64,000 nucleotides of DNA from Prevotella sp. (GCA_034101015.1 JAXEKN010000055.1:37243-101242), one strand, 5' to 3'. Numbered from the stretch's first letter, positions 9,863 to 48,007 are shown. Numbers and translations: made by a program. The notes: generated by a model from the sequence alone, not told the origin.

Positions 9863-9876
9863 TGCCGGAATAACTA

Positions 9877-12397: not shown

Positions 12398-12401
12398 CAA
12401 T

Positions 12402-28894: not shown

Positions 28895-29055
28895 AGTATT
28901 ATTACTTAATAAAATTAAAATCTTCGGCAAAGTTACACAATAAATATTTATTTTTGCTTGTTTTATTGCTTTTTCTAAGAAAATAAAGCATTATTTAATA
29001 GAAATTTCGTAATTTTGCAGCAAAAACATAACGAAATGCGTTAATTCAATTAATT

Positions 29056-33866: not shown

Positions 33867-34132
33867 TACCTTTGCAGCGTCAAAAGACAACAAGAGTGTT
33901 AGTCTTGAAATTCATAATGAGATTACATTTATTTAGGATACATCATACTTAGGTTTTTAGTTATAAAGGTTATTAGGTAATAAGATTGATTTGTTTCGTT
34001 TGATAGGTTAGTTTTTTTAGGTAAAAGATTAGATTGTTTCGGATAATACAAAAGGAGGCCGTGAGGCTGTGAATTTGGTAAATTAATTTTTTACAATAGA
34101 GTCTGGAGTTCTTCTTCAGGCTCTATTGTTTT
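33867..34132 (+). ncRNA. Candidate ~250-nt small RNA rich in TAGGT/TTAG motifs
   Basis: Promoter TACCTTTG at 33867-33874; no ORF in the ORF track; strong terminator 34093-34132. Confidence 0.5.
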
Positions 34133-34223
34133 ATATACGCTCGGTATGAGTATTGATAAGAGAATTCTGAATGGGGAGAGATACCTCTGCAAACCATAGG
34201 GCAAAAGTCGAGGTATGAGATGG

Positions 34224-34260
34224 AAAAGCGGTATGGTTTGCATCGCGCATACCATACCGC
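34224..34260 (-). terminator. Terminator downstream of susD
   Basis: GCGGTATGGT/ACCATACCGC stem with an adjacent A4. Confidence 0.7.
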
Positions 34261-34320
34261 CCAAATACTAACTACTAAATATAAACCTAAATCGAAACCA
34301 AAACTTTAATAGTATTATTA

Positions 34321-35874
34321 TTAAAAACCATTGTTCTGGGTCAATACTCCATTGCTCTTGTCAATCTCGCTTTGTGGGATAGGCAGGAGATAATCACGTG
34401 AGTCATTGAAGTTGCGACCTTTCTGCACGTCATACTTCTCGGCATAGGCGCGCATCACCTCTCCGAAGCGATGCTGACGCATCAGGTCGTCACGGCGCCA
34501 TCCTTCCATAGCCAGTTCGACACGGCGTTCATGCCAGATAATCTTTTCAAGTGCATCCTTGGATGTCTCTGTGATGTCGGGCAGTGAGGCGGCAGTCGTG
34601 GGTGGGATATATGCCTGCATATCCTTGCGCGGGTCCATTGGGTTGGTGTTGCGGGCACGCTCGCGCACCTGGTTAAGGTATTTAAGAGCTTCTTGCGACT
34701 TGCCGTTTTCATTGAGGGCCTCAGCATAGAGAAGGAGCACGTCGGCATATCTGATGAGTCGGATGTTATAGCTGATCATCCACACGTCTTCACCAGCCTT
34801 ATCGGCTATGGGCACGGTCATCTTGTAATCATGGAATCCCGTGGCCGACTGATGGTTGTCCTGACACTGGGTGTCGCCGATGTATCTGTCGCCTGTGCGT
34901 GTGAAGACGTAGGTCTGACGAGGGTCGTCAACGTCGTAGGCATCAAACAAGTCTGTTGTAGGCACATGGAAACCGTATCCCTGATAACCTGGAACATCAC
35001 GCGAGGTGAAGAAGTGGGGCACATTAGTTCCCGTGGCTATGGTCTTGTCGTAGATCTTGTTGGGGATTTCAAAGATGGACTCAGAACTGTTCTCATATTC
35101 CTTACGCCAGTTCATGCCGTAGTCAGGCAGGAGTGAGTAGTCCTTGTCCAGCTCAACGATCTCGTGGAGCACGGTTTCTGCCTTCGCATAGTCGTTGATG
35201 AACATATATGTCTTGGCGAGCATGGTCTTAGCGAAACCGCGGGTTGCCCTGTATTTGTCGGCTTCCGGGTATAGAGCCTTTGCCGGCAGTTCCTTTGCGT
35301 CGTTGAGGTCCTTCACGATCTGTGCATACACCTCGTCGGCAGTGGCGCGTGGGGTAGAGAGCACCTGTTCGGGAGTCATCGGCTCAGTGATGAGAGGCAC
35401 TCCTCCGAAGGTGGTGACCAAGCAGTAGTAGCCGAATCCGCGCAGGGCTTTTGCCTCATTGACATATCTCTGTATGATATTCTTGTCGCCCTGTGCATTA
35501 GGTGCATAATGGATCACCTCATTACAGCGGTTGACAAGCGAGTATAGGATGTTCCATCTCTTTCCCACCTGCTCGTTGTTGGTGTAGATGGTGAAGTTTT
35601 GCAGTTCCATGATGGCTGGTTGGTCGCCGTCGGTAGAGCCCTTGAGGGCGTCGTCGGTGGAGCAGTCGCCCAGTATATAGTGGTTGAGAGCATACTCGTT
35701 CCATGTCTGGCGTAGTTGCAGGTAGGCACCGGTAAGTGCCTGTTCTATCTGGCTCTCAGTCTGATAGAAGTTATCTGTTGTTGTTTTTGCGTACGTCGGT
35801 TCGTCGAGGTCGCAACTGGTCATCGAGCCACATAGTGCGAGGCTGAGGATGCCATAAAATATCTTTTTGTTCAT
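34321..35874 (-). CDS. SusD/RagB family glycan-binding lipoprotein
   Basis: Lipobox MTSC; EAKALRG.YY.LV..FGGVP; IRYADVLLLYAEALNE; ERRVELAMEG.R..DL.R; PIPQSEID. Confidence 0.95.
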   Translation of the reverse strand: MNKKIFYGILSLALCGSMTSCDLDEPTYAKTTTDNFYQTESQIEQALTGAYLQLRQTWNEYALNHYILGDCSTDDALKGSTDGDQPAIMELQNFTIYTNNEQVGKRWNILYSLVNRCNEVIHYAPNAQGDKNIIQRYVNEAKALRGFGYYCLVTTFGGVPLITEPMTPEQVLSTPRATADEVYAQIVKDLNDAKELPAKALYPEADKYRATRGFAKTMLAKTYMFINDYAKAETVLHEIVELDKDYSLLPDYGMNWRKEYENSSESIFEIPNKIYDKTIATGTNVPHFFTSRDVPGYQGYGFHVPTTDLFDAYDVDDPRQTYVFTRTGDRYIGDTQCQDNHQSATGFHDYKMTVPIADKAGEDVWMISYNIRLIRYADVLLLYAEALNENGKSQEALKYLNQVRERARNTNPMDPRKDMQAYIPPTTAASLPDITETSKDALEKIIWHERRVELAMEGWRRDDLMRQHRFGEVMRAYAEKYDVQKGRNFNDSRDYLLPIPQSEIDKSNGVLTQNNGF

Positions 35875-35907
35875 AATGGTATTCTATATTATAGTATATT
35901 AAAATGC

Positions 35908-38900
35908 TTAGAAAGTGAGGTTCACGCCAAACATATATGTTCTTGACGAAGGATATCTGGTGTTGTCGTAACCCATGTTAAGAGGACTGTTGGAGCCCAA
36001 GTCGGGGTCGAGACCGCTATATCCAGTGATGGTGAAGAGGTTCTGTGCTGACATATAGATGCGGCAGTTCTTGACATATTGCAGGGCCTTGATCCACTTG
36101 CCTGGCAGAGTATAGCCAATCTGCAGGTTTTGCAGCCTGAGGTAGCTGCCGTCCTCCACCATGAACGACGATGTGCGGAAGTTCTGGTTGTCGTTCTCAG
36201 TGGTGATGCGTGGATAAACGGCGTTGTCACCTTCCTTGCGCCATGCTTTGGTGTATGCGTCGGCAAGCGCGTTCTGATATCCAGGAGTACCGAGTGTACC
36301 CTTAGATGAATTGTAGATGTCATTGCCGATAGTACCCTGGAATGCCATTGTGATGTCAAGTCCCTTCCATTCTGCTCCAAGGTTGAAACCGAAGATCAGG
36401 TCTGGGTTGGGGTCGCCGATAAATGTTCGGTCATTGTCGTTGAGCTCGCCTTCTTCAGTCAGTTTGGCAAACTTGAAGTCACCTGGTTTGGCATGGGGCT
36501 GAATCTTTGTTCCGTTCTTGTCAACGTATGAGTCAATCTCCTGTTGGTTTTGGAAGATGCCTATCTGCTTGAATCCATAGAATCGTCCGATAGGACCGCC
36601 TTCGTATGTACGGCTGACATTGCCAGTGAGATATTCACCGTTGAGTTTGGTGACCTTCGTCTTATATGTTGACAGGTTCAAGCCGATATTGTAGTTCACC
36701 TTGCCGATGTTGTTGCGGTAGTTGGCCACAAAGTCGAAACCAGTGTTGCGCAGGTCGCCGGCATTGAAGAATGGGTCATTGACATAACCGCTGAATGACG
36801 GTATTGGTCGCTGCAGGAGCATGTCCTTGGTGTTCTTGACATAGAAGTCAAAGCTCATGTCGAGGGCATTGTGGAAGAGAGTGACGTCGATACCTATATT
36901 GGTCTGCTGGCTGGTCTCCCATTTGATGTCGGGATTACCGTTGTATGTAGGCACATATCCGGTGTGGAAACCATTGCCGAAGTACCACTGCTTCTCATTG
37001 TTGGTGCCGATGAGTGTGAGAGGAGCGTTGGCGTCGATGCGCTGGTTACCGTTCTGTCCCCATCCGGCTCTTACCTTCACGTTGTCCACCACCTTGGAGA
37101 TGCTTGAGTTTTGGAAGAACTTTTCGTTGCTCAGTCTCCATCCCAATGAGAATGAGGGGAAGTAGCCCCATCTGTTGTTCTTGGCGAAGCGTGATGAGCC
37201 GTCGGCACGGAAACTGGCGGTGAGCAGGTATCTGTCGTCGAATGAGTAGTTCACACGTGCTATGTATGAGAGCATGGAAGTGGTTTGCTTGGGTCCTGAC
37301 ACCTGGTCGCCCACGGTGCCGGCATCAAGTACGCGGTATGCTTCGTCGTTGCCTAATGCTCCACGCTTGAAGGCGTTGATGCCCTCTGATGTGTTCTTCT
37401 CGTAGGTCATGGCTCCCATCAGGTCAAGACGATGCTTGCCGAAAGTGTGGTTGTAGTTGAGTCGCTGCTCCACGAGATAATTCTGCACCAGTCCTGAGTT
37501 GTTGGTCATCTGTGTCTCCGTGTTGTATTTGCTTTCACGATTGCCAAGCATGTCGTCTGAGAAGATGGCCTCATAGATTGGCTTGAATCCGTAGAATGTG
37601 TCATGGTTTCGCTCAAAGCTGAACTGCACGCGGTATGAGAAGTCCTTTGTGAAGTTGATCTTTGCAAACAGGTTGCCAAAGACATTGAAGAGGTCGTTGT
37701 GGCGGTCGTTGAGCTTCAGCACCGATACGGGGTTGGGGTCAAATGACCATTCCGTGGGTGCCCACTTGTTGTATTCATAGTTGGCTGACGATGGGTCAAC
37801 GAGGGGATTGATGACCGGTGTGAACGGGTCGGCCTTCAGTATGAAGTCGAATGAGGGCAGGCTGTTGGCATCTCTTTTCTTCATCTTGGCGATGTTGACC
37901 ACTCCACCCACGGTGAGATATTTGTTGATGTCATATTCATGGCTCAGGCGTGCGGTGATACGCTTGAAGTCGGTCTCGATGATTGTACCCTGCTCGTCCA
38001 CGTAGCCCAAACTCAGTGAGGTGCGTGATGTCTCGTTTCCTGTGCGTATGCCTACATTGTAGTTTTGGTTGAATGCACTTCTTGTACACTCGTCCCACCA
38101 GTTGGTGCTGTAGCCCTTTTTGTACTGGTTGGTAAACTTGGTCTTGTCGAATGTGGCGTCACCGGCAAATGCAGTGGTGATATAGTCGTAGTATTGGTCG
38201 CTGTTCATCATGTCGAGAGCCTTGTAGCTGCTGCGTACACCGATGGCTGCGTCAAACGTGACGGTAGTTGCGCCCTTCTGTCCACCCTTGGTGGTGACGA
38301 GGATGACACCGTTGGAACCTCTTGAACCATAGATGGCACATGCAGAAGCGTCCTTGAGCACCTCAATGCGCTCGATGTCCGACGGGTTGATGCTTGAGAT
38401 GTTGTCCATAAACTGCCCATCGACAACGTAGAGAGGATTACAGTCGTTGACAGTGCCCAGTCCGCGCACTCTCACCACGGCGTCAGCTCCAGGCTGTCCG
38501 GAACTTGTGCTGACAAACACACCGGCAGCCTTACCAGCCATCATGTTCGACACATTGGATGTGGCATAGTTCTTGAAGTCCTTCTCGCTCATTGAGGAGA
38601 GAGAGCCGGTGAGGTCACTCTTGCGCTGCGTACCATAACCCACTACCACGATTTCCTCTATCTCATTGTCCGACTTCATCTTCACGTCACACCTTCCATT
38701 GGCATCAGCCTTGACAGTGAGAGTGACATAGCCTACGTATGACACTTGCAGTTCATTGCCCTGGGCCTTCAGCGTGAAGTTGCCGTCGAAGTCCGTTATT
38801 GTACCATTGGATGAACCTACCTCCTTGACAGTAGCGCCGATAAGCGGTTCTCCTGTAGCACCGTCGGTGACGGTACCGGTGATTGTCTTACCCTGCTGTG

Positions 38901-38958
38901 CGAGAGCCACAGTAGCGATGATAAGGGTAAAGATGCTGATAAAAAATCTCTTAAACAT
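35908..38958 (-). CDS. SusC/RagA TonB-dependent receptor
   Basis: VVVGYGTQRK, NPLYVVDG, IEVLKDASACAIYGSRGSNGVILVTTK, KWETSQQ, YPSSRTYMFGVNLTF. Confidence 0.97.
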   Translation of the reverse strand: MFKRFFISIFTLIIATVALAQQGKTITGTVTDGATGEPLIGATVKEVGSSNGTITDFDGNFTLKAQGNELQVSYVGYVTLTVKADANGRCDVKMKSDNEIEEIVVVGYGTQRKSDLTGSLSSMSEKDFKNYATSNVSNMMAGKAAGVFVSTSSGQPGADAVVRVRGLGTVNDCNPLYVVDGQFMDNISSINPSDIERIEVLKDASACAIYGSRGSNGVILVTTKGGQKGATTVTFDAAIGVRSSYKALDMMNSDQYYDYITTAFAGDATFDKTKFTNQYKKGYSTNWWDECTRSAFNQNYNVGIRTGNETSRTSLSLGYVDEQGTIIETDFKRITARLSHEYDINKYLTVGGVVNIAKMKKRDANSLPSFDFILKADPFTPVINPLVDPSSANYEYNKWAPTEWSFDPNPVSVLKLNDRHNDLFNVFGNLFAKINFTKDFSYRVQFSFERNHDTFYGFKPIYEAIFSDDMLGNRESKYNTETQMTNNSGLVQNYLVEQRLNYNHTFGKHRLDLMGAMTYEKNTSEGINAFKRGALGNDEAYRVLDAGTVGDQVSGPKQTTSMLSYIARVNYSFDDRYLLTASFRADGSSRFAKNNRWGYFPSFSLGWRLSNEKFFQNSSISKVVDNVKVRAGWGQNGNQRIDANAPLTLIGTNNEKQWYFGNGFHTGYVPTYNGNPDIKWETSQQTNIGIDVTLFHNALDMSFDFYVKNTKDMLLQRPIPSFSGYVNDPFFNAGDLRNTGFDFVANYRNNIGKVNYNIGLNLSTYKTKVTKLNGEYLTGNVSRTYEGGPIGRFYGFKQIGIFQNQQEIDSYVDKNGTKIQPHAKPGDFKFAKLTEEGELNDNDRTFIGDPNPDLIFGFNLGAEWKGLDITMAFQGTIGNDIYNSSKGTLGTPGYQNALADAYTKAWRKEGDNAVYPRITTENDNQNFRTSSFMVEDGSYLRLQNLQIGYTLPGKWIKALQYVKNCRIYMSAQNLFTITGYSGLDPDLGSNSPLNMGYDNTRYPSSRTYMFGVNLTF

Positions 38959-38979
38959 AATTAGTCTTTACTTATAAGG

Positions 38980-40716
38980 TTATTTGTATGAAATGATTGT
39001 TTTTTCTCCTGCTATTATCTTGCCGTCCTGCAGTTTCAGCGGTGTACCTTCAGGTAGTGCATATACCACCATTGCCTGCTTGGCCGCGATGTTGATCTTG
39101 CTGCCGTTTTTCACTCCGCGTGCTATATATTTCTTTGTCACGATGTCGAAGAGGTCCACATTTCCGTCGGCCATGTCGATAGTGACTTGCTTGGCATCGT
39201 CGAAGGGATTATAATATAGGTAGCAAGGATAGGTGCGGTCGGCATAGAAGTCAGTGGCATTGCAGTCAAGTCGCAGTATGCCCTCCACATCAGTCTTGTT
39301 GACGATGGCGCCGAGAATACCCACTGGCGATGTGCTGTAGAGGCTCATCATGCTCTCCGTCGGGTTGCCTTCGATCCATTTCGGTCCGTCGCCAATAGCC
39401 ACTGGGCTGACACCCTTCAGTTCGGGTTTGCCATAGTCGTCCACCTTTCTCAGTCCCTCGTATGCCACGTTGTTGTCTGTGAGGTCGCGCAGTTCAGGAG
39501 CCCACTGGTGCTTTTCGTCGATACATCCGGGGAAGAAGAGTCGGCATGCGCTGGCATTGTTGAGCATCCACTTGCCTATGGCAGCGGCATATTGCGGTTG
39601 GTATTTCACCATCGGGACGAACGGCCAAGCCGGTTTGATACTGTTCATGAGGAAGGCATATCCGCCGAGGTCAGTGATGCTGCCCTGGAGTCCGCTCACG
39701 TCATAGTCGCCCCATTTGCCCACGATGATACCCCATCCTGTGCGTCCTGTCTCGCTCTTGCAGCCGTCAAACACCCAGTTGAGCAGTTTGGTCACGTCAT
39801 ATTGCTTGCCTTCGGCAGCGTTCAGATAGGCTGCGGTATATACTCCGAGCGGCAGGAGAGCCTCGTAGAAACGGCTTTCCTTCTGTGCGAGCAGAGCCTC
39901 GATGGCACTTTCGCTATGGCTGAGATAGCGCTGGTCGCCGAATTTCCTGTAGGCATTGAGCAATACATAGGCATGACCTCCTGCTGCATCCTGCTGGTAG
40001 GGGATATGATTGCGTCCGCCCTTCATCTGCCCATAGTCAAAATATGAATAGTCGTAATTGCCGTTGAGCACAGAGTCGGCCTTGGTGAACTGTTCTGCTA
40101 TCGTGTGCATGATTTCGTCAGCACCGTCAACACCGGGGAACACATCGCTCACGGCATAGAAGAGTGCGTTGGGCAGCACGTCATACCACCAGTCGCGGCC
40201 ATATCCACCGCCTAAGCCTCCCACCTTGGACACGGTATTGTTCATCATGATGTTCCATCCATTGTCCCTGTTGAAGAAGTTCTGTATCATCTTCACATAG
40301 TTGCGGCCGTCCTGATTGGTCTTGTCTATGCCCACCAGTCCTGCACCGAGAAGGGCTGCAAGCGAGTTGAGCGACTCGTGAAACTCGCCGTTGTTGTGGT
40401 TGGGTCCCTGGCGAATGTCGCACATGGCAGTGTATAGACCGAATGTCTCCTGATTGACGTTGCGGCGTGCATTGTCGGCCCAGATCAGTGGTCCTGCCTT
40501 GCCCTTGTTGTCCCAGTTGAAGACGTAGGCGTCGAAGTCAAGGGCTTTCTGTCGCCAGTCAAGCATCTCGTATGTGGAAGGCATATCGGGCATGGAGTCG
40601 ATACGTGAGATTGACACCTGCTGTATGGCCTCGCCATAGTTGTCGCCTTCTCCGGAGCATGATATCATGGCAGCCGAAGCTACGCATGTCATTGCTGAAA
40701 GAATGTATTTATTCAT
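38980..40716 (-). CDS. Uncharacterised PUL lipoprotein; candidate glycoside hydrolase/lyase of unassigned family
   Basis: Lipobox ISC; aromatic- and acid-rich motifs (FHESLN, WWYDVLPN, QQDAAGG, FYEALLP, YEGLRK); I recognise no CAZy signature. Confidence 0.6.
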   Translation of the reverse strand: MNKYILSAMTCVASAAMISCSGEGDNYGEAIQQVSISRIDSMPDMPSTYEMLDWRQKALDFDAYVFNWDNKGKAGPLIWADNARRNVNQETFGLYTAMCDIRQGPNHNNGEFHESLNSLAALLGAGLVGIDKTNQDGRNYVKMIQNFFNRDNGWNIMMNNTVSKVGGLGGGYGRDWWYDVLPNALFYAVSDVFPGVDGADEIMHTIAEQFTKADSVLNGNYDYSYFDYGQMKGGRNHIPYQQDAAGGHAYVLLNAYRKFGDQRYLSHSESAIEALLAQKESRFYEALLPLGVYTAAYLNAAEGKQYDVTKLLNWVFDGCKSETGRTGWGIIVGKWGDYDVSGLQGSITDLGGYAFLMNSIKPAWPFVPMVKYQPQYAAAIGKWMLNNASACRLFFPGCIDEKHQWAPELRDLTDNNVAYEGLRKVDDYGKPELKGVSPVAIGDGPKWIEGNPTESMMSLYSTSPVGILGAIVNKTDVEGILRLDCNATDFYADRTYPCYLYYNPFDDAKQVTIDMADGNVDLFDIVTKKYIARGVKNGSKINIAAKQAMVVYALPEGTPLKLQDGKIIAGEKTIISYK

Positions 40717-40727
40717 AGTTGTTGTGA

Positions 40728-41978
40728 TTATTTTGAAAGTTTGTCTGATTGTTTTGTTATGTTTTTCGCCAAAGGATAGGCAAGGGTTTGGAGTGCTGCC
40801 ACGATGATGAGTGCATATTTCAGTGCAAAGTCTTCTGATACGCAGTAGGCAAGAAGGATGAATAGTCCCAGTCCGAGAAACCTGCCCACAAACATGCCCA
40901 CCTCATGAGTCATGATATATGTGTATTCATTGCGCTTCTCAATCTTGGCCACCACATCTATCGTCCTCATCATCACCGGGAAGTAGGCGAGGTCAAAGAG
41001 CGGTTGGAAAATCACCTTGCACAATACGAATGCAATCACTCCCGCAGCCGAGAAGAGTATGCCGTTGAACAATGTTCCGATGAAGAACACCAGCACGCTG
41101 CCGAGGAATATCCACAGACGATGCTCCGGGCGTGCCACACGGCCAAGTATATACACCAATATGGCTGTCAATGCTCCGCTGATGCCCTGTATGGCACCAA
41201 GAGCCCCTTCGTCGCCTACAAACTTCATCACGAGTATGGCGGGAGCCGTGACAAGGAATCCCTGCACCATTCCCTTGAGCGAAGCCAATGTGAGCATCTT
41301 GCGCCAAAGGACGTGAAAGTGGATATGGAAGAAACGTGTGTCTTGGGGCATCTCAAAGCGTCCATGTGACAATACCGACACGGCAAGGATGGTGGTGAGA
41401 ATCACCATTCCCATGACAATCTTGTAGCATAGTGAGGCATCAAATTGTATGCCAAGCATTTCCTTTCCGTTCATGTAGCCTATGAAGGCACCGATCACCA
41501 ATGGCACTGTGATGTTGGCTACCGAGAAGAAGAATGACTCCAGTCCGAAGAAGTAGTTGCGGTTGTCGTCATGGGTATTGTAGAGGGTGAGCAGGTAGCG
41601 GTTGGTCCAGAAGAATCCTGATGCGGCTCCAAGGAGGAAACCTGCTATGCCGAGCTCCACGATGCCCAGACCCTCAATGAGCATCATGCCTCCAAGCGAC
41701 AATCCGCTCACCAAGATGCCGGCAGCATACAACACCTTTATCTGTATCTTCTTCAGCAGCAGTCCGTTGAGCATTGACGTGGCCACTACTCCCACATACA
41801 TGGCCAACTGGTAGTAGGCCACCATAGCGGGAGCGTTTGTGCTTCGCATAACGTATGCTCCGGCGAATATCTCCACCACAGGCAGGACAAACGCATAGAT
41901 CATATTGGTCAGCAATAGCACCTTCATGTTGTGCTCCTGGCTACAGAAGAATTTGAATTCTTTAGTCAATCCTTTCAT
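40728..41978 (-). CDS. MFS transporter
   Basis: About 12 hydrophobic helices, AASGFFWTNR; no signal peptide. Confidence 0.85.
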   Translation of the reverse strand: MKGLTKEFKFFCSQEHNMKVLLLTNMIYAFVLPVVEIFAGAYVMRSTNAPAMVAYYQLAMYVGVVATSMLNGLLLKKIQIKVLYAAGILVSGLSLGGMMLIEGLGIVELGIAGFLLGAASGFFWTNRYLLTLYNTHDDNRNYFFGLESFFFSVANITVPLVIGAFIGYMNGKEMLGIQFDASLCYKIVMGMVILTTILAVSVLSHGRFEMPQDTRFFHIHFHVLWRKMLTLASLKGMVQGFLVTAPAILVMKFVGDEGALGAIQGISGALTAILVYILGRVARPEHRLWIFLGSVLVFFIGTLFNGILFSAAGVIAFVLCKVIFQPLFDLAYFPVMMRTIDVVAKIEKRNEYTYIMTHEVGMFVGRFLGLGLFILLAYCVSEDFALKYALIIVAALQTLAYPLAKNITKQSDKLSK

Positions 41979-41996
41979 ATAAAGGCTGTGAATTGG

Positions 41997-43040
41997 TTAT
42001 ACGTTCAGTGTGGAAAGTATCTCATTGATGGATAGGTCTGCCTGGCATATCACCTCGTCGCTTGCACCATAATATATACGTATGGTGTCGCCATCCACAA
42101 TCTGTCCGTTGGAGAACACGACGTTGCCGAAGAAACCGGTCTGCTCGTAGGGGGCAACGGGTTCCATGATGGGCTCTTCGCTGCGTGCCAGAACCTTTGT
42201 CGGGTCGTTGAGGTCGAGGAGCATGGCTCCAAGGCAGTATCTGTTTTCCTTTGTGGCACCATGGTATATCTCCAACCATCCCTTGTCGGTCTTGACGGGT
42301 GAGCAACCGGCACCAAGGCGCGCACTGTCAAACTTGCCCTCCCTTGTGGTGGCGATACACTCATGGCGTCCCCAGTGGATGCGGTCGAAGCTCTCGGCTA
42401 TCCACATATAGTTGCCGCCTAATTCCGGACTGCTCGGACGGTGAAGCGCGAAATATTTGTCGCCTATCTTCTCGTCGAAGAGTGCGCAGTCCTTGTTGTG
42501 TGCCGGGAAGATCATTCCCTCATGCTCATAGTTGATGAAGTCCTTGGTGTGAATCATGCCCACTCCCACTGCCACTGGCGACACCTCGGTGAAGGTAAGG
42601 AAATATCCGTCGTCCATGGTTGCCACCCGACAGTCCTCTATGCCGAATGACTCTGACGGACGGCTGCCGAAGATGGGCTTGTAGCGTTCATCCTCATGGA
42701 AGTGGATGCCGTCCTCGCTAAAGGCAAGACGTAGATAGGATAGGGTGGTGAGATAGTCCTGCCCCTTGTATTTTATCACTCGCGGGTCGCTGGCGTCAAG
42801 GTCTTTGTCGTCCTCGTTAAACTCCATCACCTTGAATCCCTCCGGGGTGTAGATGGGAAAGGAGATCTTGCCCTTCTGTTGCTTTGGTCTCTCGGCTACA
42901 CGTATCACGAGTCCTATACGACCGTCCATTTTGAATACTCCGGGATTCAGCAAGCAGGCTATCTCCATTCCGTCAATTGCCGGTGTGAAGTCTTTCGGTG
43001 ACAGAATAGGATTCTGCTGGTTTCTTTTGGCTATGTCCAT
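41997..43040 (-). CDS. Glycoside hydrolase family 130 (beta-mannoside phosphorylase-type), cytoplasmic
   Basis: NPGVF, GIEDCRV, NKDCALF, LHRP, IYHGA, NVVFSNG, YYGASD. Confidence 0.92.
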   Translation of the reverse strand: MDIAKRNQQNPILSPKDFTPAIDGMEIACLLNPGVFKMDGRIGLVIRVAERPKQQKGKISFPIYTPEGFKVMEFNEDDKDLDASDPRVIKYKGQDYLTTLSYLRLAFSEDGIHFHEDERYKPIFGSRPSESFGIEDCRVATMDDGYFLTFTEVSPVAVGVGMIHTKDFINYEHEGMIFPAHNKDCALFDEKIGDKYFALHRPSSPELGGNYMWIAESFDRIHWGRHECIATTREGKFDSARLGAGCSPVKTDKGWLEIYHGATKENRYCLGAMLLDLNDPTKVLARSEEPIMEPVAPYEQTGFFGNVVFSNGQIVDGDTIRIYYGASDEVICQADLSINEILSTLNV

Positions 43041-43318
43041 TTCGTTTGATGTTTTTTAATTGTTAATAAATAAGGTTGTTCAGATTGCAGGACGACGCGT
43101 CTTTTTGTCCTATTGCGCTGCAAAGGTAGCCATTTGTCCGCAATGATGCGATATACACATGTCCAAAGTTGTATGTTTGCGTACCTACACCAAATTAGAC
43201 ACTAATATATACTATTTAGGTACAAATATATACAAAATATTCATAATTTCTCAGTGAAAATATCCGTATATACATACTTTTTTGTATCTTTGCCCCGAAA
43301 AAGCTAATTGTGAACGTT

Positions 43319-46300
43319 ATGAAGATGTCAATAATGCGATGTGTGATTGTGATATACAGCCTCTTGTGGGTGTCCTTTGGCAATGCCAAGGAGTGGAAGA
43401 CGGTGAATATCAACAATACGAAGGGACTGAACAATAGTGCTGTCAACATCCTGTTTCAGGACAGGGCCGGAGTGCTGTGGATAGGCACGTGGGATGGACT
43501 CAACCGCTATGACGGTTGTCAGATATCCCACGTAAAGGCTGTGCCCAACAATTCCACGACACTGTCACACCCCGTAGTGCGCGACATACATGAGGATGTG
43601 CATGATAATGTGTTGTGGGTTGTGACCGACTGGGGTATCAACCGCATGAGCCGTCTCGACAGGTCGTGCCGCCAGTATTATCTTGACAGCCCTCACAATG
43701 TCAAGCGCACCGAGAAGTCGTTCATGGCAGCTGCCGATGACAAGGGTAATGTCGTGGCATACTACAATGGCGGCAATCTCCATATATATAATAATGTGGC
43801 GGACAAGTTTGTCCCGATAGCCACCGACTTGCCCAAGTCCGTCCATCTCAAGGCGATGGCTTTTGACTCGAATGGCTTTCTTATGGCTACCGACAGTGAC
43901 AGGCTGTATATGATGAAGATGACCGACGGGGCATTGCGCACCATACGTCGCTATCCCTTGCCTCAGAATGTATCAGCCATGACATTCGACAACTATTCCC
44001 GCCTGTGGGTGCAGACCGGCAACCGTTTGTTGTATGTCAACAATGGACGGTTTGTTGAAGCCGGGATGGAGATCGACGGCAGGTTGACCTGTGTGAGCTT
44101 TTCAAAAAAGGGATGTATAGTGGGCACCAACAATGGGTATTATGCCTATCAGTCGGGACATTTGGTGGCCCGTCAGTTGGAGAATATCTACGTGACCTCC
44201 ATCCTTCACGGCACACAGGACATCATTTGGATAGGCACCGACGGCAAGGGAGTATATCAGTATTATCAGGACGAGTCGTTTGCCAAGTCTTATGAGATAG
44301 GCGACAAGAACCTTCCCGTAAGGGCCATCTGTCTTTTCGGCAATAAGATGCTCATAGGCACCAAAGGTGAGGGGCTTTTGGTGTTTGATGTCAATGAAAA
44401 CCGTCCCATCCAACATATCAACACCATCAATGTCGGCAATGGCAGGGCATATAATGCCGTGTTCTCTCTATGTCCCAGCCGCGACGGAAGAATTTGGGTG
44501 GGAGCTGATGTTGACGGTCTCGGTTATTACAAGGACGGACAGCTATTGCGAATGGACTATACCCGTGCAGCTGACGCTGCCGTCACCAGTTCAATATACT
44601 CCATAGTGGAGGTCAATGACTCCACCCTTTATCTCGGATGCAGCGGCAGTGGCTTGGTCAAGGTAAGCCGCAGGGGAAATCTCATAACCCATGTGAAGCA
44701 ATACGGCAAGAACGTCGGTGCAGGCACCTATGGCAATATCGTCTATTCCGTCATTACCGACGGTCATTATATATGGGCAGGTACCCGTGGCGGCGGTCTT
44801 ATGCGACTCGACACACACACTGAGCAGTTGGTCACCTATAGTAATGACCCGACAAATCCACGTTCACTTTGGAGCAACGACATAATATCCCTCTATAAGG
44901 ACAGCAGGGGCAGGTTGTGGATAGGCATGTCACAAGGACTTGACATGATGTGTGATGACAATGGGCAGGCGGTGTTCCTTCATTACAATAATTGCGGGCT
45001 TGCCGATCTCAACATCCACAGCATCCGCGAGGACTATCAGGGAAATATATGGGTCAGCACCAGTTATGGCGTGTCAAAGATAACACCCAAGGGAGAGACA
45101 TTCAACTTCACCTACCGTGACGGACTGCAGGGCAATGAGTTCAGCGATGGGGCCGGGCTGAGCTATAAGAAAGGACAGGCATTGCTCTTTGGAGGCACCA
45201 ATGGCATCACCGCCATACGTCCGGCATTGCTCAATGACGGCCAGTTCATGCCCAAGCTCATTCTCTCAGGGATAAAGATCGACAACACCCCCGTGGCATT
45301 GAGCAATGAGTATGCCTTTGACAATGAGACGATGTCATATCTCTTTTCTTTCAGCATTATGGATTACATCAGCAATGACCGCTGCGAGATATCCTATCGT
45401 CTGGAACGCCATTCGCTGTTGGGCGGCAAGGAGCACGAATGGATCAACATAGGCGCGGAAAAAGACATATTGCTCAACCAACTCCCCCCGGGAGAATACA
45501 CACTCTACGTCAGACAAAGCAATTCGGCGCATATATGGGCTCAACAGCCATTGGTCATCAGTTTCTATGTCCGATATCCATGGTGGCTCAGATGGTGGAG
45601 CATATCGCTGTACGTCATTGTCATCACTGCGGTCATCGTATATTACTATCGGGAGAAAAAACGCAAGGAGATGCAGAGGCATGAACGCGAGATGGAGCGC
45701 CAGGCCGCACAGTTTCAGCAGGACACCCACCATGCCAAACTGCGATTCTTTGCCAATGTGTCGAGCCAGTTCTCAAGCCATATCACACATATATATAATG
45801 CCATTGACAAGATCAATGCCGCTCGTCCGGAGGATAATGTGGCTGAAAACGTGAAATACATACTGGGCAACGTCAAGGATATGGACAGGCAGATACAGCG
45901 TCTGTCCGAGATACAGTCGGCTGGGATAGATGATTCGGATGTCACGGCTAATGTGGTTAAGATCACCGAGGCGGTCAAATATTCCCTTGACGACTATACG
46001 CAGAAGATAATAGCCAACAGGATTAACCTCGACATCAAGGATGACGACGTCATGGTGGTGACGGACAAGATGCTATTTCTCAAGGCTATACACAATATTC
46101 TAAGCTATATCTTCAGGACCATCGACGAGAAAGGCGCGTTTGCTGTGGGATGGAAGATGAAAAACAATCAGGCTGTCATTGACTTTGACTATTCCGCCAC
46201 CACACCCGACAATGACCAGCTTGAGATTATCTTCAACCAGTTTAAGGCTCTCGACATATATGAGAGAAGACTCGTGCAGGGTGAGGACGACAAGAACTTC

Positions 46301-47233
46301 CGACTCACCATCGGCAACGAGCTGGCAAAGCGTCTCGGAGGTGGTATCACAGTGGCTGCACATGGCGAGGGAATGACGCGCATATCCCTGACAGTCACCT
46401 CTATGCCCAAGACCTTGATAAAGACGTCAAAGGAAGACGAAAAGACCTCGGGCATTGAGAAGATCATAAGCAGCGGCATGAAACGAATACTTGTGGTGAT
46501 GGACGACGGCGACATGACGTCTCTCGTGAGGTCCATACTCGAAAAGTCGTTTATCATTGATGTCGTCGAGGAGCAATATATCGCCCAGGGCAACGAATTG
46601 GAGAATACCTACGAAATGGTGATATATGAACCAGCGCATGTCTCTGACCTCTCGTTCATATCCCATGTCAAAAACAACGAGAGGACACGTTTCATGCCCA
46701 TCGTGGCTATATGCAGCAGCAGTGACAAGGAGACGGGGGCAAGGATGCTGCGTCTCGGAGCAAACAGTATCTTGGAAAAACCATTCCAGAGCGACTATCT
46801 CAAGGCCATCGTCGAGAGGGAGATGATGTCGTCCGACCAGATGCGCGACTATTCCGACTCCACATTGTCATATATGCGGCGCTTCAACACCAAGGACATG
46901 ACCAAGGAGGATACCGAGTTCTTGTATAAGCTCACCGCCACAGTGAGCCAACATTATGCCGACGAGGACTATAATCCCTCCTCACTCGCACAGGACATGG
47001 CGATGAGCCGCACCCAACTGTATCGCAAGTTCAAACTCGTGAGCGACCTGTCGCCCACTGACTTCATCCTGCAATACCGAATGTACAAGGCTGTAAAGGC
47101 ATTGCGCAATACCGACAAAAGTATATCCGAGATAATATCGCAATGCGGATTCCGCAACCGGGCCTTCTTCTACAGGGAGTTTGCCCGCCAGTATAATTGC
47201 TCGCCTAAGGAATACAGGAACTCGTCAGTCTGA
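43319..47233 (+). CDS. Hybrid two-component-like regulator (beta-propeller sensor, Y_Y_Y, TM, degenerate kinase, degenerate receiver, AraC HTH)
   Basis: LWIGTWDGLNRYDG propeller repeats, YRLE...LPPGEYTLYVR, TM helix, AraC tail MSRTQLYRKFK...GFRNRAFFYREF. H-box and receiver Asp are altered. Confidence 0.9.
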   Translation: MKMSIMRCVIVIYSLLWVSFGNAKEWKTVNINNTKGLNNSAVNILFQDRAGVLWIGTWDGLNRYDGCQISHVKAVPNNSTTLSHPVVRDIHEDVHDNVLWVVTDWGINRMSRLDRSCRQYYLDSPHNVKRTEKSFMAAADDKGNVVAYYNGGNLHIYNNVADKFVPIATDLPKSVHLKAMAFDSNGFLMATDSDRLYMMKMTDGALRTIRRYPLPQNVSAMTFDNYSRLWVQTGNRLLYVNNGRFVEAGMEIDGRLTCVSFSKKGCIVGTNNGYYAYQSGHLVARQLENIYVTSILHGTQDIIWIGTDGKGVYQYYQDESFAKSYEIGDKNLPVRAICLFGNKMLIGTKGEGLLVFDVNENRPIQHINTINVGNGRAYNAVFSLCPSRDGRIWVGADVDGLGYYKDGQLLRMDYTRAADAAVTSSIYSIVEVNDSTLYLGCSGSGLVKVSRRGNLITHVKQYGKNVGAGTYGNIVYSVITDGHYIWAGTRGGGLMRLDTHTEQLVTYSNDPTNPRSLWSNDIISLYKDSRGRLWIGMSQGLDMMCDDNGQAVFLHYNNCGLADLNIHSIREDYQGNIWVSTSYGVSKITPKGETFNFTYRDGLQGNEFSDGAGLSYKKGQALLFGGTNGITAIRPALLNDGQFMPKLILSGIKIDNTPVALSNEYAFDNETMSYLFSFSIMDYISNDRCEISYRLERHSLLGGKEHEWINIGAEKDILLNQLPPGEYTLYVRQSNSAHIWAQQPLVISFYVRYPWWLRWWSISLYVIVITAVIVYYYREKKRKEMQRHEREMERQAAQFQQDTHHAKLRFFANVSSQFSSHITHIYNAIDKINAARPEDNVAENVKYILGNVKDMDRQIQRLSEIQSAGIDDSDVTANVVKITEAVKYSLDDYTQKIIANRINLDIKDDDVMVVTDKMLFLKAIHNILSYIFRTIDEKGAFAVGWKMKNNQAVIDFDYSATTPDNDQLEIIFNQFKALDIYERRLVQGEDDKNFRLTIGNELAKRLGGGITVAAHGEGMTRISLTVTSMPKTLIKTSKEDEKTSGIEKIISSGMKRILVVMDDGDMTSLVRSILEKSFIIDVVEEQYIAQGNELENTYEMVIYEPAHVSDLSFISHVKNNERTRFMPIVAICSSSDKETGARMLRLGANSILEKPFQSDYLKAIVEREMMSSDQMRDYSDSTLSYMRRFNTKDMTKEDTEFLYKLTATVSQHYADEDYNPSSLAQDMAMSRTQLYRKFKLVSDLSPTDFILQYRMYKAVKALRNTDKSISEIISQCGFRNRAFFYREFARQYNCSPKEYRNSSV

Positions 47234-47245
47234 CCTGTCATAGGA

Positions 47246-48007
47246 TTATAGCCGCAGGCGGTAGCCTACGGTAAGGCTGAAGACGCTGGTGCGTATCGAC
47301 GAGCCGTATGTGGCGGCAAGGTCCTTCAGGCCTATGCGATACTGTGCATCGAGGATGACATTCTCGTATTCGTAGGATATGCCCATGGGTATGGACATGT
47401 CGAAGTGGTGGTATGTGGCCTTCGCGTCTTGGTCCCACGACAGATACACTTGGCTGCCCTCTTCCGCCGGATTGCCGTTGGCGTCGTAATATATGATATT
47501 GTTGGGGTTCTTCTTGTCATATAAGCCAGCCACGGTGTTGCCCTTGGATTTTGCCGAGAGCATGAAGCCGAGCTGCACTCCCGCCTTCAGCGCGATATTG
47601 TCGGTGAGATAGTAGCTGACCTTTATAGGCACGTTGAGAAAGCCGAAGTTCTCCCTGATGTTTTCAAACTTCTCGAATTTCAGCAGGTTGTCCGAACCTG
47701 CCACCTTTTCCGTCGTGTGATAATCCTTGAATTTCTCGCTTTGCATGGCATACATAGCCCCGACCGTCACTCCAATCCTGTCGCTGACCATATACTCCAA
47801 GTCCACGCCTGCCTCATAGCCTGGCTTGTACGACGAATTGATATATTCATCCACTCCCGATTCGCCAATCCATAGCTTGTCGTTGTTCAGTCTCGACAGG
47901 TTCACTCCCACCTTCGGGATGACCGACCATTCGCCTGCATCCCGCCTTTGTGCCGTCATTCCCGTGGCAATGAACATTGCCAATAACATTACCAATGTCT
48001 TTTTCAT
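47246..48007 (-). CDS. Outer-membrane beta-barrel (porin family, OMP_b-brl_2 type)
   Basis: PKVGVNLS, FLNVPIKVSY, LKAGVQLGF, SIPMGISYEY, FSLTVGYRL. Confidence 0.85.
   Translation of the reverse strand: MKKTLVMLLAMFIATGMTAQRRDAGEWSVIPKVGVNLSRLNNDKLWIGESGVDEYINSSYKPGYEAGVDLEYMVSDRIGVTVGAMYAMQSEKFKDYHTTEKVAGSDNLLKFEKFENIRENFGFLNVPIKVSYYLTDNIALKAGVQLGFMLSAKSKGNTVAGLYDKKNPNNIIYYDANGNPAEEGSQVYLSWDQDAKATYHHFDMSIPMGISYEYENVILDAQYRIGLKDLAATYGSSIRTSVFSLTVGYRLRL

What the first reader, a model, noticed from the sequence alone, without database searches (positions are those of the whole stretch)
43319..47233. Hybrid two-component regulator with every phosphotransfer motif lost but the ORF intact
Seen: the H-box reads AKLRFFANVSSQFSSH (canonical FFTNISHEFRTP; His to Ser at 45764). 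The N-box reads HNILSYIF (Asn lost), the G1 and G2 glycines are absent (DYSATTP; NFRLTIG), and the receiver phospho-site reads MVIYEP (Asp to Glu at 46628). The sensor propeller, Y_Y_Y domain, TM helix and AraC HTH are preserved over 1.3 kaa without a stop. Known: Bacteroidota HTCS signal by His-to-Asp phosphotransfer, and Asp-to-Glu can mimic phosphorylation. Inference: a phosphorylation-independent, purely conformational transmembrane regulator, or a constitutive activator or repressor, for the divergent GH130 PUL.
Basis: partly seen in the sequence, partly recalled or inferred. Interest (0 to 1): 0.7.

Follow-up and report, generated by a model that had tools for sequence, protein, structure and literature searches.

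The report
Phosphorelay-dead HTCS regulator of mannoside PUL
A pig-gut Prevotella sugar-sensing membrane regulator has lost every residue needed to pass a phosphate signal, yet it and about 40 relatives are kept intact by selection next to the same sugar-utilisation genes, so it probably signals by shape change alone.

Summary
ORF 43319-47233 (+) encodes a 1304-aa hybrid two-component (HTCS) architecture. The phospho-His is Ser816, the N-box Asn is Tyr930, G1 and G2 are lost, and the receiver Asp is Glu1104. Pfam finds no HisKA or HATPase_c.

This is not a decaying copy. It belongs to a monophyletic Prevotellaceae clade of about 40 non-redundant full-length members that go down to 36% identity, and all of them lack the His. 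Every phospho-chemistry position varies freely in this clade but is invariant in 100 canonical orthologues from other Bacteroidales. The pseudo-kinase and pseudo-receiver region is still under purifying selection (dN/dS 0.08-0.13, like the sensor domain).

Degenerate and canonical forms are true orthologues:
- Both sit divergently beside the same GH130 (beta-1,2-mannoside phosphorylase)-MFS-unknown-SusC-SusD locus.
- Both share a GTATAC direct-repeat operator with a 21-bp period.

Partly degenerate forms that still carry the His are the sister group.

Best explanation: a ligand-responsive, phosphorylation-independent allosteric transmembrane activator. This is inferred, not shown. Constitutive activity is less likely, because the sensor is still conserved and the PUL appears nearly silent in metatranscriptomes.

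It is a new variant of a known kind. I found no earlier description of it.

The parts
43319..47233 (+). Full ORF of the phosphorelay-dead HTCS-like regulator (1304 aa; alternative GTG start at 43310).
43334..43387 (+). N-terminal hydrophobic signal-anchor / TM1 (MRCVIVIYSLLWVSF...).
   Evidence: read directly from the translation; inference
43397..45571 (+). Periplasmic sensor: Reg_prop beta-propeller repeats plus the Y_Y_Y domain (residues ~27-751). It is as conserved as in canonical orthologues.
45581..45652 (+). TM2 (WWLRWWSISLYVIVITAVIVYYY), which continues as one helix into DHp helix 1 in the model.
45701..45925 (+). DHp-like helical hairpin (pseudo-HisKA). The phospho-His is replaced by Ser816 (45764-45766) and Glu by Gln817. 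The HHAKLRFF stretch is retained.
45947..46399 (+). CA-like alpha/beta domain (pseudo-HATPase). Tyr930 (46106-46108) replaces the N-box Asn. Tyr958 (46190-46192) replaces the G1 Asp/Asn. Asn993 and Arg995 (46295-46303) replace the G2 glycines. The two Tyr are invariant in 40/40 clade members.
46484..46855 (+). Pseudo-receiver domain. Met1061 sits in the acidic pocket and Glu1104 (46628-46630) at the phospho-site. The beta3-alpha3 loop is shortened and Lys1154 is kept. The REC half of the latch reads RFMP (46688-46699) instead of S/C-H-I-P.
46904..47224 (+). AraC-type double HTH DNA-binding domain. Latch residues Asp1198 and Lys1237 are present.
43151..43176 (.). Orthologous-position operator candidate: ATATAC-N14-GTATGT with CCAAAG between the half-sites. 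It is a weakened version of the family repeat GTATAY-N15-GTATAC.
   Evidence: operator role is inferred
43204..43233 (.). Perfect 9-bp direct repeat AATATATAC x2 with a 21-bp period. Second operator candidate. A further ATATAC lies at 43268.
   Evidence: operator role is inferred
41997..43040 (-). GH130, first gene of the divergent PUL. Closest relative is the beta-1,2-mannoside phosphorylase Uhgb_MS (571 bits).
40728..41978 (-). MFS transporter of the PUL.
38980..40716 (-). Conserved 577-aa PUL protein of unknown family.
35908..38958 (-). SusC-like TonB-dependent transporter.
34321..35874 (-). SusD-like glycan-binding protein.

Best explanation
The gene encodes an HTCS-derived inner-membrane transcription activator of the adjacent beta-1,2-mannoside PUL. 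It has given up the His-to-Asp phosphorelay and signals by allostery alone.

Proposed path:
1. A periplasmic oligosaccharide, most likely a beta-1,2-manno-oligosaccharide, binds the propeller/Y_Y_Y sensor dimer.
2. The resulting change in dimer geometry passes through TM2 and the still-conserved DHp-like coiled coil.
3. It repositions the nucleotide-free pseudo-CA and pseudo-receiver modules, so that the two tethered AraC domains can occupy the 21-bp-spaced GTATAC direct repeat and turn on the GH130-MFS-unknown-SusC-SusD operon.

Shown: loss of all phospho-chemistry motifs; retention of the four folds in a model; purifying selection on them; orthology to canonical HTCSs of the same PUL; a shared repeat in the promoter region.

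Inferred: lack of ATP binding and phosphorylation, the identity of the ligand, binding to the repeat, and the allosteric route.
For: - Motif loss: His, N-box, G1, G2 and the receiver Asp are replaced in WIN. Pfam gives no HisKA or HATPase_c hit.
- Clade: 40 non-redundant clade members all lack His and the N-box Asn. Their phospho-positions have entropy 1.2-2.6 bits, against 0 in 100 canonical orthologues.
- New constraints: Tyr930 and Tyr958 are invariant 40/40. 40 positions in residues 801-1170 are >=90% conserved.
- Purifying selection inside the degenerate clade: DHp+CA+REC dN/dS is 0.079 and 0.12-0.13, against 0.055-0.127 for the sensor. At matched divergence, DHp/CA/REC identity is 0.39/0.31/0.32, close to the sensor at 0.41. 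HTH identity equals that of canonical orthologues.
- Population data: four independent pig-gut assemblies carry an intact ORF, with 13 synonymous and 9 non-synonymous SNPs and no disruptive change.
- Folds kept: AF2 mean pLDDT is 84. Foldseek top hits are HK853, CusS and YycG, and also the pseudokinases DivL and RetS.
- Orthology: the same five-gene PUL lies next to degenerate and canonical regulators across Bacteroidales. A tree built only on sensor+HTH columns gives clade monophyly in 46/50 and 40/40 replicates, with His-retaining intermediates as sister in 40/40.
- Shared operator: GTATAC-like pairs at 20-22 bp occur in 14/14 degenerate and 26/47 canonical intergenic regions. Shuffled controls give 0.4 and 1.2.
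- Published mechanism: the HTCS REC-DBD latch (S/CHIP-D.K) that phosphorylation normally opens (PMC11253607, PMC13292587) has lost its His in all clade members, and the alpha6 Asp is variable. This fits a rewired output step.
- Expression: regulator transcripts are present and PUL transcripts nearly absent in four pig-gut metatranscriptomes. This argues weakly for an inducible rather than always-on system.
Against: - There is no biochemical evidence. Absence of ATP binding, autophosphorylation and receiver phosphorylation is deduced from motifs only.
- About two thirds of clade members still have the receiver Asp, and all keep Lys or Arg. Phosphorylation by small donors or a foreign kinase is therefore not formally excluded for those members.
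- WIN's subclade has extra His residues (His821, His824) on DHp helix 1.
- The latch is degraded, which by the published AD/AG mutant data could equally mean constitutive DNA binding.
- In WIN the orthologous operator pair is weakened (20-bp spacing, GTATGT).
- The metatranscriptome evidence is from assembled contigs of low depth and may include DNA.
- The AF2 inter-domain arrangement is uncertain (pTM 0.43).
Confidence: 0.55

Rival explanations
1. Constitutive regulator. With the kinase dead, the receiver locked (Glu1104 as a phosphomimic in WIN) and the REC-DBD latch broken, the AraC domains bind DNA all the time. The protein would then act as an always-on activator or repressor. PUL control would come from elsewhere, for example global catabolite control or substrate-dependent mRNA or protein effects.
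For: - The latch His is absent in all clade members and the alpha6 Asp is variable.
- Mutating S/C-H of the latch gives phosphorylation-independent DNA binding in BT4124 and BT4663 (PMC11253607, PMC13292587).
- Asp->Glu at the phospho-site can mimic phosphorylation in some response regulators (general knowledge).
- Glu arose in two subclades.
Against: - The 720-aa periplasmic sensor and TM2 are under purifying selection as strong as in canonical orthologues (sensor dN/dS 0.055-0.127; matched identities). That is hard to explain if no signal is read.
- The phospho-site is D, E or G within the clade, so there is no consistent phosphomimic.
- The nearest canonical sisters already have Tyr instead of the latch His.
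- PUL transcripts are almost absent while regulator transcripts are present in four metatranscriptomes (weak).
Confidence: 0.17
2. The protein is a sensor or modulator that no longer activates directly. It keeps ligand binding and dimerisation and works through partners, for example by heterodimerising with or titrating another HTCS or regulator. The pseudo-CA or pseudo-receiver might also have been repurposed to bind a cytoplasmic metabolite or protein, as in DivL, RetS, or the ShkA and CikA pseudo-receivers.
For: - There are clade-specific invariant residues in the dead domains (Ile865, Tyr930, Tyr958, Ala977, Thr997, Asn1000, Met1066, Glu1153). These indicate a new constraint.
- Foldseek matches include DivL and RetS.
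- Pseudo-receivers often bind ligands or partners (PMC12632262).
Against: - The AraC domain is as conserved as in canonical orthologues.
- The promoter repeat is retained in all 14 degenerate loci. Direct DNA binding at this PUL therefore appears to be kept.
- No conserved partner gene lies beside the locus. The outer flanks differ between species.
Confidence: 0.13
3. The protein is still phosphorylated, through an alternative His/Asp pair or by a kinase acting in trans.
For: - Every clade member has a His at position 803 or 804 of DHp helix 1.
- WIN's subclade has His821 and His824.
- 26 of 40 members keep the receiver Asp, and Lys or Arg is retained.
Against: - The N-box Asn, G1 and G2 are lost, so cis ATP binding is implausible.
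- The 803/804 His is also present in canonical orthologues beside the true His, so it is not a replacement.
- The receiver Asp, the Mg-binding Asp1062 position and T/S are all variable, and WIN has Glu.
- The beta3-alpha3 active-site loop is shortened clade-wide.
Confidence: 0.07
4. Neutral decay: the gene is a pseudogene in the making, whose reading frame is open by chance.
For: - Canonical orthologues exist.
- One relative (Leyella lascolaii, L025) is 5'-truncated with no PUL nearby.
- One intermediate (P0050) is split before the HTH.
Against: - About 40 independent full-length lineages exist with synonymous sites saturated.
- dN/dS is about 0.1 in the dead domains.
- Synteny and the operator are conserved.
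- The ORF is intact in four populations.
- The gene is transcribed.
Confidence: 0.02

Closest known systems
Canonical Bacteroides hybrid two-component systems (e.g. BT4663, BT1754, BT4124; propeller/Y_Y_Y or PBP sensor-TM-HisKA-HATPase-REC-AraC)
   Same: The domain order, membrane topology and AraC output are the same. The gene is placed divergently next to a PUL. It is a true orthologue, by synteny and tree, of canonical HTCSs that control the same GH130 PUL in Bacteroides, Dysgonomonas, Paludibacter, Barnesiella and others. The same direct-repeat operator is present.
   Different: The phospho-His, N-box Asn, G1/G2 and the receiver acidic pocket and Asp are lost or unconstrained. The REC half of the S/CHIP-D.K latch is lost. 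The defining intramolecular His-to-Asp phosphotransfer therefore cannot run.
Bacterial pseudo-histidine kinases (DivL with Tyr for His; RetS; ChrS pseudokinase variant)
   Same: The HK fold is retained while catalytic residues are lost. The protein is kept under selection and the dead module is used for conformational or protein-protein signalling. DivL and RetS are among the Foldseek hits.
   Different: Those proteins act on other kinases or regulators and have no fused DNA-binding output. Here the His, the ATP site and the receiver are all dead together within one polypeptide that ends in its own transcription-factor domain.
Pseudo-receiver domains / atypical phosphorylation-independent response regulators (e.g. 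NblR, BldM, HP1043, FrzS; reviewed in PMC12632262)
   Same: The receiver fold is present but lacks the DD/D/T/K quintet. Activity is presumed independent of phosphorylation. Asp is replaced by Glu or Gly.
   Different: Those are soluble proteins. Here the pseudo-receiver is sandwiched between a dead kinase and an AraC domain in a membrane sensor, and a canonical orthologue of the same locus exists for direct comparison.
Membrane-bound one-component transcription regulators (ToxR, CadC, TcpP)
   Same: This is a functional analogy. A periplasmic sensor is coupled through a TM helix directly to a cytoplasmic DNA-binding domain without phosphotransfer.
   Different: They are not homologous. ToxR-type proteins carry an N-terminal OmpR-like winged helix and a single TM segment. 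This protein has a C-terminal AraC domain and about 400 aa of relic kinase and receiver in between.
Plant subfamily-2 ethylene receptors and phytochrome HK-related domains (from general knowledge, not tested here)
   Same: These are sensor proteins whose histidine-kinase domain has lost most catalytic motifs but is retained as a signalling scaffold.
   Different: They are eukaryotic with different outputs, and there is no fused transcription factor.

Membership tests
Hybrid two-component system (HTCS) | Periplasmic glycan sensor (Reg_prop propellers + Y_Y_Y) flanked by two membrane segments | tested here: met
   Reg_prop 87.8 bits and Y_Y_Y 26.9 bits. Hydrophobic segments are at residues ~6-23 and 755-778.
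Hybrid two-component system (HTCS) | HisKA/DHp domain with the phospho-accepting His in the H-box | tested here: not met
   No HisKA hit at E<=1. Ser816 aligns with the His of canonical orthologues and of PDB 5C93.
Hybrid two-component system (HTCS) | HATPase_c with N, G1 and G2 boxes for Mg-ATP binding | tested here: not met
   No HATPase_c hit. Tyr930, Tyr958/Ala960/Thr962 and Asn993/Arg995 occupy the motif positions. ATP binding itself cannot be tested here.
Hybrid two-component system (HTCS) | Receiver domain with the acidic pocket, phospho-Asp, T/S and Lys | tested here: not met
   Response_reg scores 24.9 bits, below the 30.2 cut-off. Met1061 and Glu1104 replace pocket and phospho-site residues. 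Lys1154 and Ser1133 are kept.
Hybrid two-component system (HTCS) | C-terminal AraC-type HTH output domain | tested here: met
   HTH_18 77.4 bits and HTH_AraC 44 bits.
Hybrid two-component system (HTCS) | Evolutionary descent from, and orthology with, HTCS genes, and linkage to a PUL | tested here: met
   Best homologues beyond the clade are canonical HTCSs. The same PUL is adjacent in about 70 loci.
Hybrid two-component system (HTCS) | S/CHIP-D.K REC-DBD inhibitory latch (present in ~74% of Bacteroides HTCSs; PMC13292587) | tested here: not met
   WIN reads RFMP-D.K. No clade member has the His, and the alpha6 Asp is variable.
Pseudo-histidine kinase | HK (DHp+CA) fold retained | tested here: met
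   AF2 mean pLDDT is 84.2 with a helical hairpin plus an alpha/beta CA. Foldseek gives E of about 1e-13 to HK853, CusS, YycG, DivL and RetS. This is a model, not an experimental structure.
Pseudo-histidine kinase | One or more catalytic functions lost while the protein is maintained by selection | tested here: met
   Motif loss is. dN/dS is 0.08-0.13 in DHp+CA+REC.
Pseudo-histidine kinase | Demonstrated lack of autokinase activity | not testable with these tools
   Needs an autophosphorylation or nucleotide-binding assay.
Pseudo-receiver (PsR) | Recognisable (beta-alpha)5 receiver fold that lacks key phosphotransfer residues | tested here: met
   The sub-threshold PF00072 match spans 1-110 of 111 profile positions. 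The predicted fold is beta-alpha repeats. Glu1104 and Met1061 replace key residues.
ToxR/CadC-type membrane one-component regulators | N-terminal OmpR-like winged-helix DBD, single TM, C-terminal periplasmic sensor | tested here: not met
   The topology is opposite and the output is an AraC domain. The resemblance is a functional analogy only.

The most novel reading that the evidence does not exclude
A whole Prevotellaceae lineage runs an HTCS-type transmembrane glycan switch with no phosphotransfer at all. The ATP pocket would be plugged by two invariant tyrosines, and the relic DHp/CA/REC modules would serve only as an allosteric transmission shaft to the AraC domain. Canonical, phosphorelay-competent orthologues control the same PUL through the same operator in other Bacteroidales, and His-retaining intermediates exist. 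Together these form a natural evolutionary series showing that the intramolecular phosphorelay of HTCSs is dispensable. The same aromatic pocket-filling solution appears to have arisen again in unrelated His-less HTCS lineages.
Probability: 0.45. Interest if true: 0.78.

Novelty: new variant of a known kind. Interest (0 to 1): 0.66.

Why it matters
HTCSs are a major class of regulators of polysaccharide use in gut Bacteroidota. Their mechanism is currently framed entirely around His-to-Asp phosphotransfer that opens a REC-DBD latch.

A selection-maintained clade that has lost the His, the ATP site and the receiver chemistry, yet keeps the sensor, the DNA-binding domain, the target PUL and the operator, would show that the same architecture can signal without phosphorylation.

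The locus also offers a ready-made comparative system. Canonical, intermediate and dead orthologues of one locus can be compared to ask what the phosphorelay adds, such as gain, kinetics or insulation.

There are two practical consequences:
- Domain-based annotation ('hybrid sensor histidine kinase/response regulator') and PUL-regulator predictions in Prevotella or Segatella may mislead.
- Phospho-dependent activation tricks developed in Bacteroides may not transfer.

The controlled PUL probably targets beta-1,2-mannosides, as found in Candida mannan. That links the regulator to fungal-glycan foraging in the pig gut.

Tried and rejected
- **Neutral decay:** rejected on dN/dS, the number of intact lineages, and population data.
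- **Alternative phospho-His at 803/804:** this His is also present in canonical orthologues, so it is not a replacement.
- **Glu1104 as a clade-wide phosphomimic:** rejected, because the site is D, E or G.
- **Literature:** searches for an earlier description of phospho-dead HTCSs found only general work on pseudo-receivers and pseudo-kinases and the latch papers. 'HTCS-like' is used loosely in mannan-PUL papers.
- **NCBIfam on the regulator** gave only sub-threshold partial matches.
- **The 577-aa PUL protein** has no Pfam, NCBIfam or PDB relative.
- **First bootstrap test of clade plus intermediates** gave 0/50 only because my test set omitted two members. It was redone correctly and gave 40/40.
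- **dN/dS for WIN against its nearest relatives** was not usable. P0001 is 99% identical and P0002-4 are 51% identical with synonymous sites saturated. Closer pairs elsewhere in the clade were used instead.
- **The window's own species** was not found among the GTDB representative genomes scanned.
- **The metatranscriptome data** are low-depth contigs and are treated only as weak evidence.

Full report
**1. What is at the coordinates**

A single ORF runs from 43310 (GTG) or 43319 (ATG) to 47233 on the + strand. It is 1304 aa from the ATG and has no stop. All residue numbers below count from the ATG at 43319.

Pfam finds four Reg_prop repeats, a Y_Y_Y domain and a C-terminal AraC-type HTH (HTH_18, HTH_AraC). 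It finds no HisKA or HATPase_c match even at E<=1. The Response_reg match scores 24.9 bits, below the gathering score of 30.2. NCBIfam gives only sub-threshold partial matches to kinases and response regulators. Two hydrophobic segments, at residues ~6-23 and 755-778, bracket the sensor.

**2. The motif claims**

I aligned the protein with 70 database homologues, and later with 87 genomic loci. Canonical relatives read as follows:
- H-box: FFTNIAHEFSNS
- N-box: NLLSNAxKYTP
- G1: (T)NSGPGI
- G2: GIGLAL
- Receiver acidic pocket: VVDDQ
- Receiver phospho-site: LIICDIxMP
- Receiver Lys: KPF

The window protein reads:
- FFANVSSQFSSH: His->Ser816, codon 45764-45766; Glu->Gln817
- HNILSYIF: Asn->Tyr930
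- DYSATTP: Tyr958, Ala960, Thr962
- NFRL: Asn993, Arg995
- VVMDD: Met1061
- VIYEP: Asp->Glu1104, codon 46628-46630

Lys1154 is retained. An independent HMMER alignment to a solved kinase (PDB 5C93) places the same residues opposite the His, N-box Asn, G1 DxGxG and G2 GxGL.

**3. It is a clade, not a lone decaying copy**

The 26 closest database clusters are 99% to 36% identical and 1269-1332 aa long. All of them lack a precomputed HisKA hit. From about 36% identity downward the hits are canonical HTCSs with the full domain set.

I compared 40 non-redundant clade members with 100 non-redundant canonical relatives:

| Group | H-box His/Glu, N-box Asn, G1/G2 Gly, second acidic Asp, phospho-Asp, Lys |
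|---|---|
| Canonical (100) | invariant, entropy 0 |
| Degenerate clade (40) | variable, entropy 1.2-2.6 bits |

In the clade the His position is S/G/R/N/K/Q and the phospho-Asp position is D26/E11/G3.

Not everything drifts, however. Tyr930 and Tyr958 are invariant (40/40) at the former N-box Asn and G1 positions. Six further clade-specific residues are fixed. Forty positions in residues 801-1170 are >=90% conserved, against 74 in canonical relatives.

An NJ tree built only from sensor and HTH columns excludes the degenerate region. It recovers the clade in 46/50 bootstraps and in 40/40 bootstraps on a thinned set. Its sister group is a small set of intermediates: Prevotella sp. UBA5379 (L030), P0029, P0030 and P0050. 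Clade plus intermediates is monophyletic in 40/40 replicates. Three of the four intermediates (L030, P0029, P0030) still have the His and the N-box Asn; P0050 has Tyr at the His position. All four already carry Tyr at G1, a damaged G2, and a lost or altered acidic pocket. This suggests stepwise decay, with the ATP site and receiver pocket lost first and the His later.

The genomic loci name the clade as Prevotellaceae: Prevotella sp. KH2C16, P. illustrans A2931, Leyella lascolaii and many uncultured Prevotella.

**4. Selection**

At matched sensor divergence (35-45% identity), per-domain identity is as follows:

| Domain | Degenerate clade | Canonical relatives |
|---|---|---|
| DHp | 0.39 | 0.575 |
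| CA | 0.31 | 0.46 |
| REC | 0.32 | 0.47 |
| HTH | 0.55 | 0.535 |

The relic modules are therefore relaxed, but they remain about as conserved as the sensor itself (0.41).

Nei-Gojobori dN/dS was computed for close pairs inside the clade. For DHp+CA+REC it is 0.079 (L012/L013) and 0.124-0.128 (L015 against L017 and L024). For the sensor it is 0.055-0.127, and for the HTH 0.03-0.05.

For the window's own species, four independent pig-gut assemblies carry the full-length gene. They show 13 synonymous and 9 non-synonymous differences and no disruptive change. None of the replaced motif residues varies except Thr962Ala.

The degenerate state is fixed, and the region is under purifying selection.

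**5. Orthology and target**

The gene lies divergently beside five genes:
- GH130 (41997-43040). It scores 571 bits to the beta-1,2-mannoside phosphorylase/synthase Uhgb_MS (PDB 9EQQ), and is also related to Lin0857.
- An MFS transporter.
- A conserved 577-aa protein of unknown family.
- SusC.
- SusD.

The same array flanks degenerate orthologues at 51%, 41%, 38%, 36% and 36% identity, with unrelated outer flanks. It also flanks canonical His-containing HTCSs.

In a scan of GTDB species genomes, nearly every locus retrieved has GH130-MFS-unknown next to the regulator. The taxa include Prevotella, Bacteroides, Dysgonomonas, Paludibacter, Proteiniphilum, Barnesiella and Muribaculaceae. The degenerate and canonical proteins are therefore orthologous regulators of one order-wide PUL.

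The GH130-regulator intergenic regions share a direct repeat, GTATAY-N15-GTATAC, with a 21-bp period and CAAAG between the half-sites. Pairs with at most one mismatch occur in 14/14 degenerate and 26/47 canonical regions. Shuffled controls give 0.4 and 1.2.

The window has a weakened copy at the orthologous place (43151-43176, 20-bp spacing, second half GTATGT). It also has a perfect AATATATAC pair with a 21-bp period at 43204-43233. That the repeat is the operator is an inference. It fits tandem AraC domains tethered in a dimer.

**6. Structure**

An AlphaFold2 model of residues 770-1304 was built with a 60-sequence alignment. Mean pLDDT is 84.2. The model shows:
- a long TM2/DHp helix and a helical hairpin
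- an alpha/beta CA-like domain
- a (beta-alpha)5 receiver-like domain
- the double HTH

Inter-domain geometry is uncertain (pTM 0.43). Foldseek against the PDB returns DHp-CA structures (HK853, CusS, YycG) at E of about 1e-13. The known pseudokinases DivL and RetS are also among the hits. The folds are kept while the chemistry is gone.

**7. Link to the published HTCS mechanism**

Gao et al. showed that most Bacteroides HTCSs hold the AraC domain in a closed, inactive state through an S/CHIP-D.K latch between the receiver alpha3-beta4 loop and the DBD. Phosphorylation opens the latch, and mutating S/C-H gives phosphorylation-independent DNA binding (PMC11253607, PMC13292587).

In this family the distant canonical orthologues read xHIP-D.K and the nearest canonical sisters read xYIP-D.K. 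No degenerate member has the His (Y, F or N instead). The alpha6 Asp is variable. The window reads RFMP-D.K. The phosphorylation-operated latch has therefore been remodelled along with the loss of phosphorylation.

**8. Mechanism**

My best reading is a ligand-responsive allosteric transmembrane activator (confidence 0.55).
- The sensor is as constrained as in canonical orthologues, so a periplasmic signal is still being read.
- DHp helix 1 is strongly conserved apart from the His and Glu, so the dimeric coiled coil is still the transmission element.
- The AraC domain and the promoter repeat are conserved, so the output is still direct activation of this PUL.
- The two invariant tyrosines sit at positions that line the nucleotide pocket in real kinases. 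I infer that they stabilise a nucleotide-free CA fold. This was not checked in coordinates.

The main rival is constitutive DNA binding. The broken latch and, in the window's subclade, Glu1104 support it. The conserved sensor speaks against it, as does the D/E/G variability at the phospho-site. So do four pig-gut metatranscriptomes in which short contigs cover the regulator but almost none cover the 9-kb PUL. That last point is weak, because the data are low-depth assembled contigs.

Phosphorylation through other residues, a partner-dependent modulator role, and neutral decay are less likely. The reasons are given under the rival explanations.

**9. How unusual is it?**

A HMMER scan of 1.84 billion 50%-identity representatives used the cytoplasmic part as query. 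The clade collapses to about six representatives (P0003, P0006, P0121, P0016, P0017, P0026), followed by the intermediate P0029 and then canonical HTCSs.

Among 127 further representatives with an alignable H-box, 11 lack the His; one of these (P0121) belongs to the clade itself. Most of the other ten are only 22-31% identical to the clade and 20-45% identical to each other. One pair with Arg at the His position (P0059/P0068) sits next to a different PUL of GH43/GH5-like type. His-less HTCS-like proteins have therefore arisen several times. Several of them again carry Tyr or Phe at the N-box or G1 positions.

Pseudo-kinases and pseudo-receivers are established concepts (PMC12632262, PMC4211667). 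I found no description of a phosphorelay-dead HTCS in six full-text searches. Those searches cover only open-access papers and preprints.

**10. Verdict**

- Observation: confirmed.
- Interpretation: supported, with the conformational-regulator alternative favoured over the constitutive one.
- Novelty: a new variant of a known kind. It is an HTCS-derived regulator that fails the defining phosphotransfer features of HTCSs yet is a selection-maintained orthologue of canonical ones.
- Value: the locus provides a natural series (canonical, intermediate, dead) for asking what the phosphorelay contributes.
- Interest: 0.66.

Noticed in passing
window 38980-40716 (-): A 577-aa protein is conserved at 59-81% identity in every orthologous PUL across Bacteroidales. 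It has no Pfam, NCBIfam or PDB sequence relative. It is a candidate new enzyme or binding protein of beta-1,2-mannoside catabolism.
   Followed up: partly
canonical orthologues, e.g. L006, L072, P0027-P0120 (G1 box): All canonical orthologues of this regulator carry Asn instead of the usual Asp at the G1 DxGxG position (NxGxG: 100/100 and 88/88). In the wider set of HTCS representatives, 107 have Asn and only 19 have Asp at this position. The ancestral kinase of this family may already have had atypical nucleotide binding.
   Followed up: partly
P0059/P0068 (L088), P0130, P0193, P0155, P0198, P0220, P0224, P0230, P0231, P0246, P0247: These are other, mutually distant HTCS-like proteins that lack the phospho-His (Arg, Gln, Lys, Asn, Tyr or Glu instead). 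P0059 lies next to a GH43/GH5-like PUL. Several again have Tyr or Phe at the N-box or G1 positions, which suggests recurrent, convergent loss.
   Followed up: partly
L025 (Leyella lascolaii khD1) 9962-12649: Only the part matching residues 425-1300 of the regulator remains, and no PUL genes lie within 10 kb. It looks like a truncated relic left where the PUL was lost.
   Followed up: partly
L089 (P0050) 9122-13100: This intermediate-type regulator is split into a 1232-aa ORF and a separate 83-aa HTH ORF. It is either a frameshift or pseudogene, or an assembly error.
   Followed up: no
L012 vs L013 regulator genes: dS is about 0.95 in the sensor and DHp but 0.12-0.27 in CA, REC and HTH. This mosaic suggests recombination within the gene between Prevotella lineages.
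   Followed up: no
L013 and L022: Contigs labelled Lachnospiraceae and Clostridia MAGs carry the Prevotella-type regulator and PUL (75-82% identity to the window's PUL proteins). This is probably a binning error.
   Followed up: no
window 44910-44913: The window differs from four pig-gut assemblies by a compensated +1/-1 indel three bases apart (net effect Arg532Gln). It may be a sequencing or assembly artefact in one of the sources, or a real micro-variant.
   Followed up: partly
window 34000-47600: The sequence is present nearly identically in at least 20 pig-gut metagenomes from many studies, so the host is a widespread pig-gut Prevotella-like species. No species-level match appeared among the GTDB representatives scanned.
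   Followed up: partly
window 48390-49991 (+): A gene for a predicted AAA-ATPase_like plus PD-(D/E)XK (PDDEXK_9) protein lies downstream of an OMP beta-barrel gene (47246-48007). It is unrelated to the PUL.
   Followed up: no
window 25196-28930 (-) and 29601-31283 (+): A large Omp28/Big_5 surface protein and a DUF6029 protein lie upstream of the PUL. They were not examined further.
   Followed up: no
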